This document shows positions 15,240-63,565 of a DNA stretch of 64,000 nt, piece by piece; position 1 is the first letter of the stretch; the number at the start of each line of letters is the position of its first letter. Source of the stretch: Eledone cirrhosa. Taxonomy: Eukaryota. The translations under genes and the position numbers were made by a program. The notes under the pieces were generated by a model. It had not been told where the DNA came from. It was given only the letters and a program-made list of their open reading frames with translations, and ran no database searches. The stretch spans positions 127,472,001-127,536,000 of the forward strand of contig OZ024740.1 in NCBI GenBank assembly GCA_964016885.1, given 5' to 3'.

Positions 15240-18255
<3,016 letters not shown>

Positions 18256-21313: not shown

Positions 21314-23621
21314 ATGGAAAGGCACGAATTGGATATGTCGTTAAAAAACACCTATTCAGGCAAAAAAGGAATATATTCTAGGTATGATACGAAGGATCAA
21401 TGATTTTATTCGACGAATCATATGGAAAACATTCTATTTTGACAAAAGCTGTATAAACCAAACATCGGATCTTAACAAGGATAAATTTGGATTTAAATCT
21501 TACAAAAACCCACCCTCAAACCCACTTTTGGATGCATTTGAACAAGACCTAATGGATATGATCATGGAGATCAAATTTACAAAATAGAAAAACAATAAAC
21601 TACAGAATGACATCACGGCACTGCTCAATAATCTAAAAAACGCCAATGGAATTATTGTTAGAGCAGACAAAACATCAAACGTATATACCATGGATGTGGA
21701 CACTTATAATAACTTCATCCGTAAGGAATTGTATAAAAAATACAAGAAAACTACTGAAGCTACACTTAAAAACATCAACAACTCGGCATGTGAAATTGTT
21801 AAAAAACTTTGTATTGACGATAGAACGCAACCCTTAACACCAGCTACACCATCCTTCAACCTGAAGGACCACAAGGTAAACTTCGATACTGACCCTAAAA
21901 TTAGACTTATATGCCCCTCTAAATCTGATACAGGCAAAATTAGCAAATATATACTAGACAGAATTATCCCCCAAGTTAAGGCTAAAGTAGATATTAAACT
22001 ATGGGGTAACACCCATGAAGCAATAAGATGGTTTAATAGCATTACTGATAAGAAGAAATTAAAATTTATTCAGTTCGATATTGATGAATATTATTCCTCA
22101 ATCTCACCTGATACTCTGCGTGAAGCTCTTTCGTTCGCTAAGGCTAATTCCGACCTTACGGATGATGAAATTAGTATTATTATGGAAGCGAGGAAAACTA
22201 TTGTTAAATTTGATGATAGCTACTGGGTTCGCAAAGATAGACCTTCTAATTTTAATATAACTATGGGTTCCAATGATTCGGCGGAAGTAACTGATCTTGT
22301 GGGAATTTATATCACCCACAGACTACAAGGAACATTCAAGGATCTCCATGGTGGACTCTACCGTGACGATGCGCTCCTATTAGTTAAGCATATGAATAAC
22401 CACAATTTAGAAAGGATGCGTAAAAATAGTAGAAAGCTTTTTAAGAAACTAGGATCAAATATTACGTTTGAATATAACCTCAAAGAGGTTAATTTCCTTG
22501 ATGTTACTTTGAATCTCAATACAGAAACGATTAAACCGTTCCATGAACTAAATGAGAACCTTAAATATGTAAATACGGGTTCTAACCATCCACCCTCTAT
22601 AATTAAATCGATCCCTAGAAATATTTCCCTTAGAATCTCCCGCGTGTCGTCCAACCAGCAAACCTTCAAAGAACATGCCGAATATTATGATGATGCACTT
22701 AGGAAGGCTGGACACCTAGATAATATAGAATATATAGTCGACGATCACCAAAACACCCAAAATGAATCTCATAGAGGTAGAAATAGCATAGAATCACCAC
22801 CATACATACACTACCGCAATATACACACTAATTGTCGCACACCACCAAACAGAAGGAGATGTAAAGAGTATATATGGTATAACCCGGTCTATAACAACTC
22901 TATTAAAACCAATCTACCCTCACAATTCTTTCGATTAGTTAAAAAACACTTTCCAACATAACATAAATATAATAAAATCTTAAACCCTAACACTATTCGA
23001 CTTACATATTCAACCGCCCCTAATATTGAACAACATATAAAAAAGCTTAACGCAAAACGGTTGTATAAACGCCTTCCAACACGTAAAACATCGGCTATAA
23101 CATCAGAAAACAACAAACAACATCCAGTCCTGCCTAAGCAACCTCATCAACCCATCCATGCTAATACAACAACGCAAAATTATAACTGTAACTGTGTCCA
23201 ACCAGGAATGTGTCCGTTGAACAATCAGTGTCTTGAACGCAACATCATATACAAATGTACTATCGAATCGGGTAACCTGAATTGGTACTATGTGGGGTCT
23301 ACAGCTACCTCATTCAAATGTCGCCTTTATAGACATCGTTACTCGATAAAACATGAAAACCAGCATTATGTAACAACACTTGCAGACAAGGCTTGGCAGC
23401 TGCACGAAAATAATAACCAACAATTTAACCTAAAATGGGATATAATAGTGTTTGCTCCTGCATATTTCCAAGGACAGGAATTTTGTAAATTGTGTAAAAT
23501 GGAATTATTTTGTATTATGAAATCCAAAAATATTTTATTAAATAACAGAATAGAGCGATCGTTATACTGTAACCATCGCTTGAAATCTACATTTTCATAT
23601 TACAAACGCTACCAGGATTGA
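21314..23621 (+). pseudogene. PLE RT-GIY-YIG polyprotein (~770 codons) with one early frameshift and two premature stops
   Basis: MERHELDMSLKN(I)P...; KDHK..F...PKIRLICP; FIQFDIDEYY; ITMGSNDSAE; GLYRDDAL; VNFLDVTL; IWYNP; CNC..CPL..CL; YYVGST; CKLC; CNH. Track ORFs 21384, 21690 and 23061 share one frame; stops at 21585 and 22959. Confidence 0.92.
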
Positions 23622-26442: not shown

Positions 26443-26761
26443 TATATATATATCTAATTCAAACCATTCGTTCTAAGTGATTCACTCCGACGTGCCTTTA
26501 TCTATCCTGTAAAGGAATATTTATTCCAGTAATGTTAATCTTCGTTCACTGCTATATAATTCTGACTACCTTCCAGCAACATCATTATAAAGCATATTTC
26601 TTCTCTGAAGACTATGTAAATATCACCCATAGCAATATATATGCATACGTGCACACATATACAGTATGTCTAGAACTGTTATATTGATATTGAGTAGTTG
26701 AAGCACGGTGTAAGAAGTAAATGTTGTATTCTCCATTCATTTTGCTTATATGTATATATAT

Positions 26762-26857
<96 letters not shown>

Positions 26858-26858
<1 letters not shown>

Positions 26859-29200
26859 TATACCCGCAACCCCCACCCGAAGGACCATAAGGTAAATTTT
26901 GACTCTAACCCTAAGATTAGACTTATATGCCCTTCTAAATCAGACATAGGAAAAATTAGCAAACATATACTTGAAAGAGTAATAACTCAATTGAAAAAGA
27001 AAATAGAAATTAGCAAACATATACTTGACAGAGTAATAACTCAATTGAAAAAGAAAATAGAAATTAAATTATTGGGCAACACTAGCGAAGCAATTCGCTG
27101 GTTTAATATCGTTAAGAACAAGAATAAATCTAAGTTTATACAATTTGACATAGACGAATACTACTCTTCAATCTCACCCGGCACTTTACGCAAGGCCCTA
27201 TCATTTGCTAAAGTCAATTCCGACCTAACGGAGGACTAAATCAATATTATTCTAGAGGCTAGAAAAACTATTATCAAGTTTGATAACTGCTACTGGGAAC
27301 GTAAGGACAGACCCACAAACTTCGACATTACCATGGGTTCCAACGACTCAGCGGAGGTCACCGATCTTGTGGGAATTTACATAGCCCATATACTACATGG
27401 TATACTTAGTAATCTACAGGGGGGAATATATAGAGATGACGGGCTCTTATTAGTTAATAACTTAAATAACCAATTGAAAGGCTACGGAAAACATTAGAAA
27501 ATCTTTTAGTGAACTGGGTCTAAAAATAACGTACGAATACAATCTTAAAGTAGTAACTTTTCTAGACGTAACTCTTCCTCAAGATAAATGACATCCTTAC
27601 CTATATCAATTTTAACTCAAACCACACACTTTCCATGATCAAATCGGTTCCCCGTAGTATTTCTCTTAGAATCTCTCGCCTATCGTCTGACTCTGAGATT
27701 TTCAGTGAACATGCTGAATACTATAATAATGCATTAAGGAATGCCGACCACCGGGATACAATAGAATACATTGCTAAGAATCTCCATAACACACACAGCT
27801 CTACACGAAATCAAAGAATACGTAACCGGGGTACTGAAATACAAGCGCACACACGCAGTACCACCAGACATACTAATAATAGAAAAATCATCACCAAATA
27901 AATCACGTTGTAGAAAGTATATCTGGTATAATCCCATTTTTAATGCTTCGATTAGTAGAAAACTATTATTTCATTCTTTAAGTTAATCAACAATCATTTC
28001 CCTAGATCCCATAAATACAGTAAAATTCTGAACTGTAAAACTATTAAACTATCATACTCCACGGCACCAAACCTTGAAGCATCTACCACTACCTCCTTTA
28101 AATCTCGCTGGTATCGTCATCGATTCTCAATTAAACATCCTAATCACCGTTTTGTGACCACGTTCGCCAACAAGACCTGGCAACTCCGTGAACGCAACCA
28201 ACAGTTCACCTTGAAATGGAATATACTTTCCAGCGCTAGTGCATATCGAAGTGGATTGAAGTACTGTAGGTTATGTAACCTTGAACTATTTTACATCTTA
28301 AAATCCCAAAATAAATTACTAAATGATAGAATCGAACGATACTGCAACCACAAACTGAAGGCTAAATTCTCTCACTATAAAATAACTTAACATTCGAACC
28401 CGTAACTATGATATTGCTTTCTAGCTAACCACTTTCTCTTCCCCCACACTACAAGACAATACCATGCTTATCACTATAAATGGAAACTTAGTGCAATTTG
28501 TAGCCTACTACTATGAACTCAATGTACACCCTAACCCAGAGCTGTCGTCTGTCTCCTCTCTATCTGTCCCTCTCTATCCATTCCCCCCTTTCTCTCTCTC
28601 GCCCTAGGTCCACCTCCCTCCCTCTCCACATCCATGAACCTGCCATCTGTGGCAATAAATAATTCAAACCTTGACTATCAACGCATCGCTTAAGGTGGTC
28701 GCTTTAAGTGTAACCATTATAAAAAAAACCCTACCACAACATTTTGATTAAGATATCTACAAACCACTCTCTCCCATTTCTCCAACCCCTGCATATCTCT
28801 CCCCCTCTCTCCCTCTCCCCTTCTTTTCTCTCTTCCTTTTCTACTCTATCTTCCCCAATAACCTCACTTAAGGGTATTTACATTGTACATTTTAACCATT
28901 CTGCTCTGATGATACAGTGGTCACAGCATTTGATAATTGAGTTTTGCAAATAGTTATAAATTTACACATCGCATAACTAGGCTGTATAACCAACGTGGAA
29001 ACATTTGTAAGCACACAGAATACATTACCCTTTTATGATGTCTACCTGTTATTATTCATTCTTTATCTACACTCCGGAATACAGAAAAATCAGGAACTGA
29101 GTTTATTCAACTATTATTCCATAACTCGCTGAGTAACCTCTCACCGTACGTCAACTCTATCCAGTGTAGTAATTAACCATTACTGCATCCAGGATAATCC
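26858..29200 (+). mobile_element. 5'-truncated, internally deleted Naiad-type PLE
   Basis: [55 protein letters not shown]; stops, frameshifts and a deletion near 28080; starts inside (TA)n. Confidence 0.9.
28902..29013 (+). ncRNA. Hammerhead ribozyme with 85-nt branched stem II
   Basis: tgct-CTGATGA-[tac..tggt..acagc...gctgt..acca..gtg]-GAAA-catttg-TA-agca; stem I tgct/agca. Confidence 0.8.
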
Positions 29201-34251: not shown

Positions 34252-36508
34252 GGGAGACATGATAGGAAGCATAAAAAACACTTGTGAGCAGTGAAGTTTT
34301 AAATCAACATATGTTGATTTAAAACTTCACTTCTACAAAGAACATACTCATACCAAGCAGGAAAACTCCTGATACAGAAAACAGACGCGTTCATTAAAAG
34401 GTTGCGTGGGCGTGCCTTTTATTTCGATAAGCAGCGAAAAGCAGACAACAAACAGGATAAATTTGGGTTTAAAACCTATAATAACCCTGCGTGTAACCCA
34501 GCATTGCTACCCTTCGTAAATGATGTCTCGGAACTCATACGGAATATCAAATTTCGGAATAGGAACAATTCCTTCCAGCAGGACCTGAAGAATAATATTC
34601 GTTCTATTAAAGATTCTAATGCCGTGCACGTCCATTCCGACAAAACTGGCAACCTATATCAAGTGGAGTGCAGTACTTACCATCAACTACTACATAATAC
34701 TGTAACTAAGGATTACCGTAAAACTAATCGGTGCGTTATTAATGATATCAGCGATGCTGGCTTTAAAATCACCTCTTATCTCAACATCCTGGACCGGACC
34801 GAACCTCTGGACCCTATTTCTCCCCACTTTACCCTGAAGGATCACAAATCCAATTTTCCGAACAACCCCTCTATTCGGCTTATTAACCCTACGAAGTGCG
34901 ATTTAGGTAGACTTAGTAAAAGGATTCTTGATAGAATTATACCTGAAATTAGAAGTTCGGCCCCTCTTGCACTGTGGAACAATTGTTTCGCGGTGATTGA
35001 TTGGTTCAACGGCATATGCAACAAGGAACATTGCCGTTTTATCCAATTCGACATCAATAATTACTACTCCTCCATCACTTTACCACTTCTCCTTAGAACT
35101 ATCAATTTCGCTAAAACACTCACAGTGGTTAAGGATTTCGAAGATGATGTCATCCTCAATGCCCGTAAGTCGGTGATTATTTTCGACGACTCTATTTGGA
35201 TAAAAAAATCAAATAGTACCTCATTCGACGTGCGTATAGGCGCCAGCGATTCTGCGGAGATAACTGATCTTATCGGCCTTTTCCTTATTTTCTCTATCAA
35301 GGACAAATTCCCCAATGTGGGCGGTGGTTTGTACCGTGATGATGGTCTTTTGACCATGACTAAATGCGGCCCAGTTGCTTGCGACAGGTTCAGAAAATAA
35401 CTCACAGCCTTCTTTAAAGGCTTCAACCGCTCTATACAGGTTGAGGCCAACCTCTCGGTCGTTAATTACCTCGACGTTACCCTCAATTTATCGAATGGCT
35501 TGTATTATCCGTATAGAAAGCCAAATGATACGCTTAATTACATAGGTAAGCATTCTAACGTGCTGCCAGCATAACCAAGAACCTGGTAAGAGACGTTTCT
35601 TTGAGGCTTTCCCGTCTATCTACTAACGAGCATATTTTCAATGACAAATTCCACATATTACAATGAAGCTCTTGCTCGGAGTGGATTTGTCGATAAGGTA
35701 GCATACACAGAGTACGGGAATATACCTAGAAGAAATAGATTCCGACGCATTATATGGTATAACCCACTATATAATATGGAGGTGGCCACACCATTAGCTA
35801 AGATCTTTCTATCCCTTATTACGAAGCATTTTCCCCCTACACATAAATATAGTAACATTTTTAATAGAAATACTATTAAAATGTCTTACTCTACGACTAC
35901 TAATCTTGCACATAACATCACAGCTTCAAATTTAGCTAAACTACCTAGCCGTAGGAACACGTGCAACGCTGTAGTTAGTAATAACTCTAATTGTAGGAAT
36001 CGGAGTGATTGCTCCCCATCCGGGAAATGCCTCTCTAGTAACATTGTCTACAAATGTAAGGTTGAAACACCCACGTCCCGTAGGGCTTACATAGAGATAC
36101 CCGCCAATAGATTCAAGCAGCGTCTTTACATGCATACCCATTGTTTTCGTTAGCATCTAAGAAGGAATATGACGTCACTTTCAGCTTATATCTGGGGTCT
36201 AAAAGACAACCACACCAAAATATAAGTTAAACTGGGAGATCCTAGCTAGGGCTAGATCGTATAACGGAAATAAAAGACAATGTGACCTCTGCGCCGCTGA
36301 GGCCCTGGAACTGCACTACGCCACAGACCACATCTTAAACAAAAAATCTGAGGCAATTTCGGCTTGTAAACATAAATTGCACAACGCTTTCCTGTATTAC
36401 AGCCCCACATTATACCCTAACGGATAGTACGATCTATACGTGGATATTTTACGTCTTGATATGGGAGCTAAGTATCGGTTTTGTTTATTCCTTTACTTAT
36501 TTGCATAG

Positions 36509-37251
36509 GTAAGTATATATTACCTGTATGTTTTGTGAAGGTACGTATACTTTCTCGTACGTATATTTTATTGTATATGCTATGGCGTATATTTTATATA
36601 TTCTGGTACATATGCTTTTGGTTATGTGTATACGTGAGCTTTGCGTCTGTGTGAGAATGCGGGTTCGTAGTATGTAGGGTGTGTATATGTGTACTTCGTG
36701 TATTGGTTGACGTCGTCTCCGAACATATGTGTATTTACCTCAAGGTATGTGTGTGCGCTTCTTATATACGTATTTATTTATTTATATACGTTTATTTAAT
36801 TATTTGTATACACGCACACACACACACACATATGTATATGTGCGTGTATTTGTATATCTATGGTGAATGTCTTCGCGTATGCTTGTGTATGTACGTATAT
36901 GGAAGCGTGTATGTATTTATTTATTTCAATTACCTCTGTATTTTATTTACTTTATTCTTAACTCTGAAGCCGAGAATAATTCGGTTTCCTAGTTAGAATT
37001 TTAGTCTACGACTTCAGTTATACCATTTACGTGGTTTTGTCTTTGCGTGCAATTGTTCTCCACGGTCCACATATGACGTATTATCTTCGTTTTTTCCGTT
37101 CATTGCCAGAGAACGTCTATATGAACCACCTAAGAGAATATAGTCTACGACTTCTTTTATACCATAAACGTGGTTTTGTCTTTGCGTGTAATTGTTTTTC
37201 ACCGCTTCAAATAATGACGTATTATATTCGTTTTTTCCCGTTCTTTGCCAG
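36509..37251 (+). other. 743-nt spliceosomal GT-AG intron in the PLE 3' UTR/pLTR
   Basis: catag|GTAAGT ... ttttttcccgttctttgcCAG|ggaacg. The paralog at ~29385-29395 (minus) reads catagggaacg, the exact spliced junction. Confidence 0.9.
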
Positions 37252-37348
37252 GGAACGTTTCCACGAACCAAAGTATCGTCTTCCTGTCTTCCTCCAGTTG
37301 CAACGTTTTTTGAAATATTCACTTCTGCGTTCACAGATTGACTTTGTT

Positions 37349-37399
37349 AGTTTCAGAAGATCCTGTTATGGGTGAAAGCAGCGATTCTTTGCTTAAACT
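37349..37399 (+). ncRNA. Variant hammerhead (CAGAAGA core)
   Basis: Third copy of the motif, ~100 nt downstream of the intron acceptor. Confidence 0.65.
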
Positions 37400-37512
37400 T
37401 TAATCTGTTATTGTCATTTTAATAAATATTTGCTCTACGGTTCCTATATATTTGATATAAATTTATCCTTATCGAGCCCTCTTTGGATTTTAGTCTTCGA
37501 ATTTATTATTAT

Positions 37513-37572
<60 letters not shown>

Positions 37573-37732
37573 TAGAATTGGTGCTCTGAAATACCGATAT
37601 ATATATGTATGTATATATAGTGTATTTTGCAATACACTGTATGCTTAATTAAAAGCACTTTGAAGACATTACGCTATTGTTTTAAAGTAGTGACTATGTC
37701 ACTTAATTCTTTTTTCAGCAGGCAAAGGGAGA

Positions 37733-37780
37733 TAAGCTGACATATCTCAGTTTCGTACTGTTGGTACTCCTCAGAGCTTA
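37733..37780 (-). ncRNA. Type I hammerhead ribozyme, family B
   Basis: taagct-CTGAGGA-gtac caaca gtac-GAAA-ctgagatatg-TC-agctta; 6-bp stem I, canonical core, GUC triplet. Confidence 0.9.
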
Positions 37781-38053
37781 GCACTCCCTTTTCCTGCTGA
37801 AAATTATGAATGTTGGATTCTTATAGAATTCCAAGGAATGATCAGGAACTGATTATACTGAGCGGTTGCCGGTCCAGCAAAAACTGAAAATTACAATTTT
37901 GGTGCTATGAATTAACGTTATATATATGAATGTATATATAATGTATTTTGCAATACACTCTAGGCTTAATTAAAAGCATTTTGAAGACCTTACGCTATTG
38001 TTTTAAAGTAGTAACTATGTCACTTACTTCTTTTTTCAGCAAACAAAGGGAGA

Positions 38054-38101
38054 TAAGCTGACAGATCTCTATTTCGTACTGTTGGTACTCCTCAGAGCTT
38101 A
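38054..38101 (-). ncRNA. Type I hammerhead ribozyme, family B
   Basis: taagct-CTGAGGA-gtac caaca gtac-GAAA-tagagatctg-TC-agctta. Confidence 0.9.
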
Positions 38102-39880
38102 GCACTCACTTTGCCTGCTGAAAAGTATGAATGTTAGATTCTTATAGAATTCCAGTAATAATCAGGAACTGATTATACAGAGCGGTTGCCGGTCCAGCAA
38201 AAATTGAAAATTAGAATTGGTTCTCTGAAATAGATTATCTCCCTTTGCTCTGTCAGCTTATCTCCCTTTGTTTGCTGAAAAAAGAAGTAAGTGAAATAGT
38301 CACTACTTTAAAACAATAGCATAAGGTCTTCAAAATGCTTTTAATTAAGCATACAGTGTATTGCAAAATACATTATTTATACATTCATATATATAACGCT
38401 AATTCATAGCACCAATTGTAATTTTCAGTATTTAAAGTTTATATACTTTTAATATAATTACTTTCAATTACCTATAATAATGTAGTGATTTAATACAGTA
38501 TATAAACTTTAAATACTAGATACGGCAGTGAATTATATATGCAATTGTAATTAAATGTAAGGAGTAATAACATTAGATATATATAGGATTAATTTATTAA
38601 TATAAGGGATCTGTCTAACTTATATGTAAGGTGCTGCAATGAATTATATATGAATTATATATGCAGGTATAATTGATGGATAGATTAATGACATTGTAAA
38701 TGATGGATGTATTTGTCTGCCCTAGAGATGTATTTGGTTTTATCATGCAAACAGCCATACGCTACTCCATAACTCACCAGGGGTTATGTGGACAACATTC
38801 TAATAGGTCCTCGGATATGTTTTGAGAGTAGACTGCATTTACAGTGAACTCTGATATAAAGATATGGCATTTTGTATGGAAGGTTCAATTGGAGCACTAT
38901 ATAATAAGGAGTAATCAACTTCCTATAGATACCTTTAATACATTATGATAGAGTAGACTGTATTTAAAATTTAAAATTTAAAATTTAAAATTAGATATAA
39001 ATATATAACCTTTTATATAAGGAACTCAATTGAGGCACCATATAATGTATGTTAGAACAATGAATTTAGATATGAGAATCAGCTAGTTACCTCCCCTTAT
39101 GCATTAACTCCCCTTAATTACACACCTACTTCCGGGTAATAAACCACTGTAAATTCTCGCAGCAGAAAGAACCTATTCTATAAATATGGATTAAATAACA
39201 CTGAGCCTCAATACGCTACAATAATTTAATGCACCAAACATTCAATACGGAATCATGGTAACTTATGTGATGGATGTGAACACTTTTCTTACTTTTCCTG
39301 GATGTGAAAATGGTGGTGGATATGAAAACTATAACTTTCTTTTTCTTCTTCTTTTTCTTTTTCTGCACACATACTTTTTTGATCTATACAAAAAATACCC
39401 TACCACTACAACCACCATAATACTCTTGCTTACACGCTTAAAGTGCTTGCATTACATGTAACACTTTGCCACACAATAATCGTATCTAAATTAGACACAC
39501 TTGCATGCTCCATGTGTAACTAACCCATACACTACATACTAGATCTGACTATCAAACTATCCTCTTGCATTATCTGTATTATCTGCCGAATGTATTTTAA
39601 TTTTGATTTTGATTTTGATTTTGATTTTGAATTTGAATTGCTGTACAAAGATAGTATAGTATAATATGTCACTCCACTGTACATCAATATATATATATGT
39701 ATCTGTATGTCTCTTGCGTTGGAAAGGAAGTCAATTATATGTACAAACATTGAAAAATGGTCCGAAGATTCCAAGCCTAGGTTTGGATGAAACAATTGTA
39801 AGTGAATGAATGCTTTGAACATAGCTTTGATTCTTGTGAAATCTCTATATATATACACACATATATATATATATATATAT

Positions 39881-61159: not shown

Positions 61160-63075
61160 TATAAAATTTATATATTTTATAGATCCATCTGTTATATAGT
61201 TGTGAATGTTAAAATATGAGTTTGTTTACTATAACGTCTTAATATTTAAAGTTTTTCTTAAGAATATATCTAGAGCATAAACCGTAAAATAACCTTTTTA
61301 CATGAGTTCATTCATAGAATGCATTCAAAATTATACATTTCGATATTTATAGACCCACATATACATAGATATACATACATGGATACGCACATATACACAC
61401 ACACATATACATATATACACATACATATACAAATATACATATATATATATAAATACAAAATATATACTATAAAATAAAATAAATATGTGAGTTATAATTT
61501 TAAACAGGATTATAATTTTAAAAGGAATTACAATTTTTAAAAAGGAATTACAATTTTTTAAAAATATAATTATATAATTTTAAAAGGAATTATATTTTTA
61601 AGCAATGTAATTTTTAAGCAATATAATTCCAAAAATATGTAGCTTTTAAAAAATATATATAAGAATATATAGAAAAAACACAGTATGAAATATGTATTAT
61701 AACTTTTTATATATCCATCAGAGGAATTAACCCCAAAAAGCCTCTTTTTAAAACTTTCAGTATGTTTATCTTAATTTTTTATATATCCATTTTTTTTTAA
61801 AACTTTAAGTATGTTTATCTAGAAGAATTTTCAAGTAAAAAATGTTCCTCATTTAAGAGAGTTTTTGGCAGTCGTACGAAGGAATCTAGTGATTTATCGA
61901 TAGGTTTAATAAGATGAGCTATATATTACATTTTAAATTTATATTTAAACGTTGAAATCAATCTATGTTTGCAGCAACTGAAAAGATTGTTCCTTAGATT
62001 CACAGAATTTTTGCTCTTTAATATAAAGAATATTTCCTCTATACAAAGAGCACAATTTTCGGAAGAAGAATTGAATGGAGGAGCTTTGGGGGTAATATTC
62101 CAAAGTAAATAATCGTTAATGTTCTTTAATTTTAGGTCCCATAATAAGCTAGATGGAGAAGAATTTTTATTTATATTCGTAAAAGAGCATTTATGGTTAT
62201 TAAAACGAGATTTGAAGTCTGTGGAAGTAGAACCTATATAATTAAATGAATTTAAATTAGTTTTTACATTACTATTATATACTATATTTTTAGCTAAACA
62301 ATTGTTATTTAGCGGAGAGTTATATTTGTTTCTACAGTTACATTTATCAAAATTCAAGTTACTAGGAGCCGTGTTATTAAATTGGATATTGCTGGTGTTG
62401 TTAATGGTATTCTGGTTAGGTTTTAAGTTTCTATTATTAATTCTATTACTATTCTGCGCTAAATTACTGGTGGTTGAATAAGTTAATTTTATAGTATGTC
62501 TATTAAATATTGAGTAATATCTATGTGTTCTAGGGAAGCATTTGTCAAGAGCTTTAAAGAATAGTTTAGCTATAGGAGTTTTAATATTTAATGAGAAAGG
62601 AAGAGAGAACCATAATATATTCCTAGTTCTATTTCTTTTTTTGTTTATCGAATTATTGTAAGGTTTTCTATTATAGTTGTTAACATTGTTAAAATTATGG
62701 TTAGTTGTTATATTATTATTATTATCAATGTATTTAATTTTATTACTATATCCAGGTCTACCTAACGCTTCGTTGTAATATTGCGCTTTATCAAAAATAT
62801 TCTTATTAGCTGAAATTCTAGAAATGCGTTGCTGTACAGAATTTACTATAATATGTTTAATTGATCTGGGGTGATTGGAGTTAAAATTAACGTAGTTTAA
62901 GTTCTCGTTTAATTTGTGTAATGGATAATGAAGACATGTGTTAAGGTTTAAGGTTACAACTAGAAAGTTAACTATTTCATAATTATTCTCTATTTCTACT
63001 TTAAGATTAATGTAATTAAAAAATTGTATAATTTCTTTACTTTTCCTATTTAATTCACAGTTATTAATTCCAACA
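61160..63075 (-). mobile_element. AT-rich Naiad-type PLE 3' half plus UTR
   Basis: ORF 61926..62357 CNCRNK..PLNNNCLAKNIVY...YIGSTSTDFKSRFNNH...CALC...CKHR; upstream NFLVVTL and CFPRTHRY remnants. Confidence 0.88.
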
Positions 63076-63565
63076 AACTATTAATGGATTTGGAAAATGA
63101 AATCATCTTAATCATTCAAAACATTATATTTAAAAAAAAGACTTCATAGGCCATGATTACTTAAGAAATCTCAAAAGTAATATTGAAAACTTGGAGAAAA
63201 CGGAAAAAATTCTAGTAAAGTCGGACAAAAACAATAATATTTATGGAATGCAGAAGGATATTTATAACGATCTTATATTAAATGAATTAAGGAAAAAATA
63301 CAAAATAACAACTAATGGCGACCTTGAAAAGTTGAATACAGAGGCTTCTTACATAATGCAGGATTTAGGCATTGAAAATAGGAGACAACCCTTCATGCCA
63401 AGGAAACCAAAAATTAATATGAAGGACCACAAAAAGAAATTTGAAATTGACTTACCAGTAAGATTAATTGCACCATCTAAACCCGACCTTGGCATACTTA
63501 GCAATAACATTTTAGACAGAATAATACCACAATTTAAGGAATTATCTTATTTAAATTTTCCTGAA
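63075..63565 (+). mobile_element. Naiad-type PLE N-terminal RT fragment
   Basis: ORF 63191..63577 KSDKNNNIY...KDHKKKF..PVRLIAPSKPDLG. Confidence 0.8.

What the first reader, a model, noticed from the sequence alone, without database searches (positions are those of the whole stretch)
37570..38430. Family B: 321-nt tandem HHR dimer, with an inverted copy starting next to the cleavage site
Seen: two canonical HHRs (CTGAGGA, GUC triplet, 6-bp stem I) exactly 321 nt apart on the minus strand. The inverted third copy begins at ~38236-38255 with ttatctccctttg and tctgtc|agcttatctccc, within a few nt of the predicted scissile bond. Inference: that cDNA ended near the 5' end of a self-cleaved RNA, a possible genomic footprint of in vivo cleavage.
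Basis: partly seen in the sequence, partly recalled or inferred. Interest (0 to 1): 0.75.

Follow-up and report, generated by a model that had tools for sequence, protein, structure and literature searches.

The report
Penelope-pasted retrozyme; faint ribozyme-cut footprint
This is one of thousands of copies of a small protein-free repeat with a hammerhead ribozyme motif, likely pasted in by Penelope-type retrotransposon enzymes; its mirror-image arm runs 6 bases past the predicted cut, so it is likely not a record of self-cleavage, although about 1 in 100 insertions elsewhere may be.

Summary
In detail: two type I hammerheads lie 321 nt apart on the minus strand (C17 at 38060 and 37739), and a head-to-head copy starts beside the cut. 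The 37739 motif has a damaged stem III. The unit is a dispersed family (2,468 exact hits of one 38-mer) with Penelope-type footprints: (TA)n targets, head-to-head 5'-truncated arms, and one short plus one tailed 3' end in 86 of 96 pairs. Compensatory changes (C3-G8/U3-A8, stems II and III) point to selection on the ribozyme.

The footprint inference fails for this copy. The inverted arm contains 6 nt upstream of the scissile bond, and 16 of 254 arms end within ±6 nt anyway. Family-wide, 220 of 254 arms read through the cut, with no spike (6 observed, 5.5 expected at +1..+4).

A weak footprint may exist elsewhere. Ends are about twice as dense just 3' of the cut as just 5' (P=0.006), and 8 of 12 near-cut junctions have both arms at +1..+4 (control 0 of 12). 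Microhomology and hairpin stalling remain rivals.

Verdict: new non-LTR retrozyme / non-autonomous Penelope-like family. The scan noted this architecture, probably this family, and a similar 2% footprint before in this genome.

The parts
37572..38233 (-). Main arm, about 2.07 units: 5' end at unit +145 (38233), 3' end at the 'tail' site +167 (37572)
38054..38101 (-). Type I HHR A: stem I UAAGCU/AGCUUA, CUGAGGA at 38095, stem II GUAC/GUAC, stem III UAGA/UCUG, C17 = 38060; sits in a longer extended stem I
37733..37780 (-). Type I HHR B: CUGAGGA at 37774, C17 = 37739; stem III reduced to 2 bp by mutation
37739..38059 (-). Predicted cut-to-cut monomer, 321 nt, 34% GC; circular fold z = -4.5; family units hold no stop-free frame over 71 aa
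37572..37596 (-). About 25-nt tail between the family's two fixed 3' end sites (+142 and +168)
37516..37571 (.). (TA)n/(TG)n microsatellite at the main arm's 3' end, the family's usual target
38234..38248 (+). Junction insert: 13-nt copy of unit +4..+16 (38235-38247) plus one base each side
38249..38430 (+). Inverted arm, unit -6 to about +176 (cut between 38254 and 38255); shares private tail variants with the adjacent unit, not the terminal one (7 vs 15 mismatches)
38428..38517 (.). Atypical outer end of the inverted arm: an inverted copy (about 38428-38446) of flank 38498-38517 joins it to an unrelated repeat that is truncated at about 38445

Best explanation
The locus is one insertion of a protein-free, hammerhead-bearing 318-321-nt repeat family that is likely reverse-transcribed in trans by a Penelope-like RT/GIY-YIG enzyme, mostly from RNA that was likely uncut or re-closed at the ribozyme site. 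Shown: thousands of dispersed copies; (TA)n flanks; two fixed 3' ends about 26 nt apart; head-to-head arms that nearly always pair one short with one tailed end; broad, mutually independent 5' ends; 87% read-through of the cut; covarying ribozyme pairs. Inferred: the enzyme opens a (TA)n site, both DNA ends prime cDNA internally at +142 and +168, both cDNAs stop at variable points, and host end-joining fuses them by microhomology or short templated inserts. Also inferred: the template is a multimeric transcript or a circle, and a small class (about 1%) came from RNA cut at the ribozyme. In this copy the inverted arm crosses the bond by 6 nt, carries a templated insert and has an atypical outer end, so its nearness to the cut is likely a product of end-joining.
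For: Copy number: 2,575 candidates; 2,468 exact 38-mer hits. Sample of 283 arms from 173 loci: 3' ends in two clusters, 148 short and 135 tail; 214 of 283 followed by (TA)3+; 223 of 283 in head-to-head pairs; 86 of 96 pairs mixed short/tail, P 2e-16; 5' ends of paired arms uncorrelated (7 vs 6.9 permuted); both arms of the same subfamily in 50 of 50. 220 of 254 arms pass the cut; hazard at +1..+4 is 1.09 times the mean. Positions 3/8: U-A 115, C-G 76, U-G 5, C-A 0 of 204; stem II GUAC/GUAC, AUAC/GUAU, GCAU/AUGC, GCAC/GUGC; stem III CAGAGCUCUG and CAAGGCCUUG palindromes. Partial tandem, inverted 5'-truncated copy, tail at one end and microsatellite bias are described PLE traits (PMC8557442 passages). 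Two internal RT start sites define the tail, and unprocessed RNA was the dominant substrate in vitro (PMC11167929 passages). A young C-terminal GIY-YIG PLE with 784-aa open frames exists in this genome.
Against: No autonomous partner sharing this unit was found: unpaired 5' flanks gave no common breakpoint (64 flanks), and the young PLE matches only weakly in TA-rich sequence. Ribozyme activity and expression are untested. Circle versus linear multimer is unresolved: units within an arm differ by 4.6-5.0%, arms of a pair by 4.3%, separate insertions by 6.1%, and this window's units were already different. Read-through does not exclude cleavage, since an RT jump across a nick or religation gives the same sequence. 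The samples are exact-match anchored and position-ordered, so they lean to young copies on two chromosomes.
Confidence: 0.82

Rival explanations
1. One reading: the inverted arm's cDNA ran to the 5'-OH end of a self-cleaved RNA, then jumped across the nick onto the 5' product still held by stem I, copied 6 nt, slipped back to +16 and stopped at +4.
For: The final cDNA end (+4) and the arm start (-6) both lie near the bond. Seven sampled arms end at -1..-5 and one at -6..-11. In one search, read by eye, 11-12 of about 31 ends lie at +1/-1/-2 (P about 0.02).
Against: Needs two extra jumps. 16 of 254 arms end within ±6 nt. Junction inserts are common. The arm's outer end is atypical and templated from the flank. 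One search shows a second cluster of similar size at -9..-11.
Confidence: 0.12
2. There is no cleavage footprint anywhere in the family. The excess just 3' of the cut comes from RT stalling in the long extended stem I, and the double stops at +1 come from annealing on the AGCT palindrome at +1..+4.
For: The mode of ends is +13..+17, inside the stem, not +1. 5 of the 8 double stops overlap on AGCT. Other single microhomology junctions recur 3-4 times in a control window and about 6 times at +13/-15. Near-symmetric junction totals are alike at cut and control (26 vs 23). If local end density is doubled, the expected number of double stops rises to 4-5 (P 0.04-0.13).
Against: 3 of 8 double stops do not use the overlap. 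The 10-nt stem III palindrome beside it gives only 3 junctions and CCGG gives 0 of 12. At mean end density about 1 double stop is expected against 8 seen (P about 1e-5).
Confidence: 0.45
3. The window's inverted arm is a fold-back or repair copy of the neighbouring unit's DNA, not a second primed cDNA.
For: It shares private tail variants with the adjacent unit (7 vs 15 mismatches). Both of its ends carry templated inserts, its 3' end is at about +176 and it is not in (TA)n. The pair is tail/tail-like, unlike 86 of 96 pairs.
Against: A second priming on the penultimate unit of a mixed multimeric RNA gives the same sharing; family tail ends reach +177.
Confidence: 0.35

Closest known systems
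Metazoan non-LTR retrozymes (Cervera & de la Pena 2020, PMC7229834, passages read; Li, Clavereau & Pollet 2026, bioRxiv 10.64898/2026.07.22.740005, parts 1-3 of 5 read, abstract to discussion)
   Same: About 320-nt low-GC tandem unit, one type I HHR per unit, no ORF, thousands of copies; PLEs proposed as the mobilising enzymes.
   Different: Here copies are mostly 1-1.5-unit head-to-head pairs with fixed short/tail ends in (TA)n, which the passages read do not describe. No RNA, circle or cleavage data exist here, and no parent PLE was found.
EN+ Penelope-like elements, Neptune/Naiad-type insertions (Craig et al. 2021, PMC8557442, passages read)
   Same: Partial tandem, inverted 5'-truncated copy, tail at one end, (TA)n target.
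   Different: No RT or GIY-YIG ORF; tail about 26 nt rather than 30-40; Naiads lack canonical HHRs.
Anolis Poseidon PAc in vitro (Frangieh et al. 2024, PMC11167929, passages read)
   Same: Two internal RT start sites that define the tail, downstream of the HHR; both strands extended; unprocessed RNA the main substrate.
   Different: PAc is autonomous, and its authors saw no RNA-seq reads starting at the HHR cut; the minority of double stops at +1 here has no counterpart in those passages.
PLE HHRs with U3-A8 core and palindromic helix III (Cervera & de la Pena 2014, PMC4209133, passages read)
   Same: C3-G8 to U3-A8 covariation; palindromic stem III suited to dimeric folding; HHR pairs on opposite strands 100-700 bp apart.
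   Different: This family has a 4-5-bp stem III and 4-bp stem II, so it is canonical rather than minimal.

Membership tests
Type I hammerhead ribozyme | Core CUGANGA/GAAA/NUH with stems I-III | tested here: met
   HHR 37739 has only 2 bp in stem III
Type I hammerhead ribozyme | Covariation that keeps the 3:8 pair and the helices | tested here: met
   191 of 204 are U-A or C-G, none C-A; counts are copies of a few subfamilies, not independent events
Type I hammerhead ribozyme | Self-cleavage after C17 | not testable with these tools
   Needs transcription; only 1 of 9 predicted Xenopus dimers cleaved in the 2026 preprint
Non-LTR retrozyme | 150-450-nt low-GC tandem unit with a type I HHR in two consecutive units | tested here: met
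   321 nt, 34% GC, two HHRs
Non-LTR retrozyme | No protein-coding capacity | tested here: met
   Longest stop-free frame on tandem subfamily units 48-71 aa
Non-LTR retrozyme | Expressed as linear and circular monomer RNA | not testable with these tools
   No RNA run was available to lay
Non-LTR retrozyme | Target-site duplication | not tested
   Flanks are mostly (TA)n, where duplications cannot be read; no search for them was made
EN+ Penelope-like element (autonomous) | ORF with RT and GIY-YIG | tested here: not met
   No long frame in the unit; the element is non-autonomous
Penelope-type insertion (non-autonomous) | Inverted 5'-truncated copy joined to a partial tandem | tested here: met
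   223 of 283 arms in head-to-head pairs
Penelope-type insertion (non-autonomous) | Two internal 3' end sites; tail on one end | tested here: met
   +142 and +168; 86 of 96 pairs mixed; tail about 26 nt
Penelope-type insertion (non-autonomous) | Microsatellite target | tested here: met
   214 of 283 arms followed by (TA)3+; at short ends the element's own TA run merges with the target; tail ends alone 118 of 135
Penelope-type insertion (non-autonomous) | Terminal sequence shared with an autonomous PLE | tested here: inconclusive
   One young PLE family checked: only weak TA-rich matches; other PLE families were not checked

The most novel reading that the evidence does not exclude
A minority class of insertions (about 0.3-2%) was made from RNA already cut by its hammerhead in the germ line: both cDNAs ran off at the scissile bond and joined on the exposed AGCT, giving about 310-nt palindromic minimal insertions. 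The genome then records in vivo cleavage of a PLE-mobilised retrozyme and shows that one Penelope complex primes both target strands at two fixed sites, on cut as well as uncut or circular RNA.
Probability: 0.5. Interest if true: 0.6.

Novelty: new member of a known kind. Interest (0 to 1): 0.42.

Why it matters
The role of hammerheads in Penelope elements is open: in vitro they are not needed for insertion (PMC11167929), and PLE mobilisation of animal retrozymes is proposed, not shown (PMC7229834; 2026 preprint). This family gives quantitative genomic constraints: a strict short/tail pairing of the two arms, mostly read-through templates under clear ribozyme covariation, and at most a small class stopping at the cut. 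These are directly testable in the existing in vitro PLE system. The locus itself is an ordinary member of the family.

Tried and rejected
Rfam scan: no hammerhead among the 150 of 196 rows shown. RNA search: no RNA holder listed; nothing is drawn from that, and no reads were laid. Autonomous partner: none from shared 5' flanks or from the young 784-aa PLE, in whose three fetched regions a relaxed HHR scan also found nothing. General symmetry of junctions: rejected, 7 vs 6.9 permuted. My first count of 11 of 15 double stops (by eye) fell to 8 of 12 after fetching: C4:377531315 is a single arm with a short fold-back, C6:27594097 a read-through with deletions, C21:19500494 not family. The control junctions were read from the printed matches, not fetched. 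One search was swamped by an unrelated satellite (235 hits, 100 listed) and was not used. The BLAST-ranked set L001-L030 was left out of the end statistics because it is selected for full monomers. Rolling translation of the circle: no long frame. Monomer-circle templating could not be separated from linear multimers. Four paper searches listed no paper tabulating PLE 5' ends against the HHR cut; only open-licence texts are searched, and no supplements were read.

Full report
Observation. The two hammerheads are as described: CUGAGGA at 38095 and 37774 on the minus strand, GUC with C17 at 38060 and 37739, 6-bp stem I, 321 nt apart; controls give 0.01-0.06 hits per window. The upstream motif can take the active fold at 0.6 kcal/mol above its minimum; the downstream one has a 2-bp stem III and needs 5.0. 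The inverted copy is 96% complementary to the neighbouring unit. With +1 as the first base after the cut, the junction on the plus strand is: main-arm start (+145, 38233), one base, a 13-nt copy of +4..+16, one base, -6..-1, then +1 at 38255. The arm therefore crosses the scissile bond.

The family. The window lies in a 3.0-Gb genome whose host I did not determine. One 38-mer of the unit has 2,468 exact hits; a rough scaling from a 19% exact-match rate gives up to about 13,000 unit copies. I took three position-ordered samples: all 100 listed places; 95 of the 100 listed (three insertions already held, four places in all, stayed in the excluded BLAST set, and two apparent segmental duplicates were skipped; the count is approximate); and 57 of the 100 listed. 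These gave 283 arms from 173 loci with a canonical 3' end, length 40 or more and not cut by the locus edge; in the first sample 18 of 134 arms had other 3' ends. The 3' ends fall at +142 (148 arms) or about +168 (135). 214 of 283 run into (TA)n, 223 of 283 are in head-to-head pairs, and 86 of 96 pairs join one short to one tailed arm (P 2e-16). The 5' ends of partners are independent overall, and junctions show short overlaps or inserts.

Ribozyme selection. Among 204 HHR copies, positions 3 and 8 are U-A in 115, C-G in 76, U-G in 5 and C-A in none. Stem II and the palindromic stem III change by paired substitutions. These are subfamily differences, so they stand for a few events, but each keeps the fold. 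The U3-A8 core and palindromic helix III are reported for PLE hammerheads (PMC4209133, passages).

Test of the footprint, single arms. Of 254 arms that reach +30, 220 extend more than 4 nt past the first cut. Ends at +1..+4 are 6 against 5.5 expected; at +1..+20, 36 against 28 (P 0.09); the mode is +13..+17. In the window's own subfamily 1 of 119 arms ends at +1..+4. 16 of 254 arms end within ±6 nt, so roughly one two-armed insertion in eight would look like this one.

Test of the footprint, paired arms. A genome-wide pattern for junctions with both arms near the cut gave 46 places. After fetching, 12 are family head-to-head junctions: 8 have both arms at +1..+4 (5 overlapping exactly on AGCT, 3 blunt or with inserts), 3 overlap on the 10-nt stem III palindrome, and 1 is ambiguous. 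Three more double stops with point changes came from other calls (L063, L253, L270). All have distinct flanks and come from two subfamilies, neither the window's. A pattern of like design at a CCGG palindrome gave 0 of 12 (Fisher P 0.0013). About 1 is expected at mean density and 4-5 at doubled density. Against this, single microhomology junctions recur 3-4 times in a control window and about 6 times at +13/-15. A filtered single-arm pattern, read by eye from 63 rows, gave about 31 ends between +5 and -11: 11-12 at +1/-1/-2 (P about 0.02), 4 at -3..-8 and 9-10 at -9..-11. I put a real minority footprint at about even odds.

This copy. Its inverted arm shares private tail variants with the adjacent unit (7 mismatches, against 15 to the terminal unit), so the template held unlike units or the arm was copied from the first arm's DNA. 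Its outer end is not in (TA)n: an inverted piece of flank joins it to another repeat broken at about 38445. Templated inserts at both ends point to repair synthesis, not to a clean run-off.

Mechanism. The inferred route is Penelope-type target-primed reverse transcription from both strands of a (TA)n site, primed internally at +142 and +168 just 3' of two small predicted hairpins, on multimeric or circular RNA, with end-joining of the two cDNAs. The layout matches that described for PLEs (PMC8557442, passages), and the two start sites and use of unprocessed RNA match the Anolis element in vitro (PMC11167929, passages). A young PLE with 784-aa frames ending in GIY-YIG is abundant here but shares no clear terminus with this family, so the mobilising element is unknown.

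Novelty. The unit meets the sequence definition of a non-LTR retrozyme (PMC7229834, passages; 2026 preprint, parts 1-3 of 5) and shows PLE insertion marks: a new member of a known kind. Earlier notes of this scan describe the same layout in this genome, probably the same 318-nt U3-A8 family, and a footprint of about 2% in a hammerhead repeat; I saw them after my own tests, and they are not independent support. Interest 0.42.

Noticed in passing
window 17599-18255 (-): 3' part of a young, very abundant C-terminal GIY-YIG Penelope-like element (CxxC linker, Neptune/Nematis-like by description); 18,382 candidates, many with 784-aa open frames at 97-98% identity.
   Followed up: partly
window 21588-23621 (+), 34318-36153 (+), 61926-63077 (-), 26721-27239 (+): Frames that look like further Penelope-like RT/endonuclease remnants (YRDD motif, cysteine-rich C-terminal part; reading from recall). 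Pfam gave no hit above cut-off for the five frames scanned; 26721-27239 was not scanned.
   Followed up: partly
window about 37370-37515: Another short repeat abutting the same (TA)n; similar sequence flanks other loci (L008, L021, L029, L304).
   Followed up: no
window 37002-37258: 139-nt tandem of 1.8 copies, part of a repeat shared with loci L003 and L021.
   Followed up: no
window 38445 onward (+): A dispersed repeat (744 candidates, 90-95% identity) broken at this point by the insertion.
   Followed up: partly
window about 48974 (-): A weak HHR-like descriptor hit (4-bp stem I, 6-bp stem II, 4-nt stem III region) from the relaxed scan.
   Followed up: no
L087, L101: Long tandem arrays of the same family (7 or more units), with units differing from each other; possible source loci for multimeric RNA.
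   Followed up: no
L330-L357: A further subfamily with stem I GCC/GGC, U3-A8 core and in some copies a 9-nt stem III region; its +1..+4 is not palindromic, which makes it the natural control for the footprint test.
   Followed up: partly
L027, L334, L337, L344: Internal deletions or template jumps with one breakpoint at the predicted cut; L334 lacks part of the GUC triplet region.
   Followed up: partly
G000 C2:248-251 Mb, C3:163-169 Mb, C4:140 and 205 Mb: Clustered satellite sharing a 16-nt word with the family's +5..+20 region but otherwise unrelated in the one locus inspected (L360).
   Followed up: no
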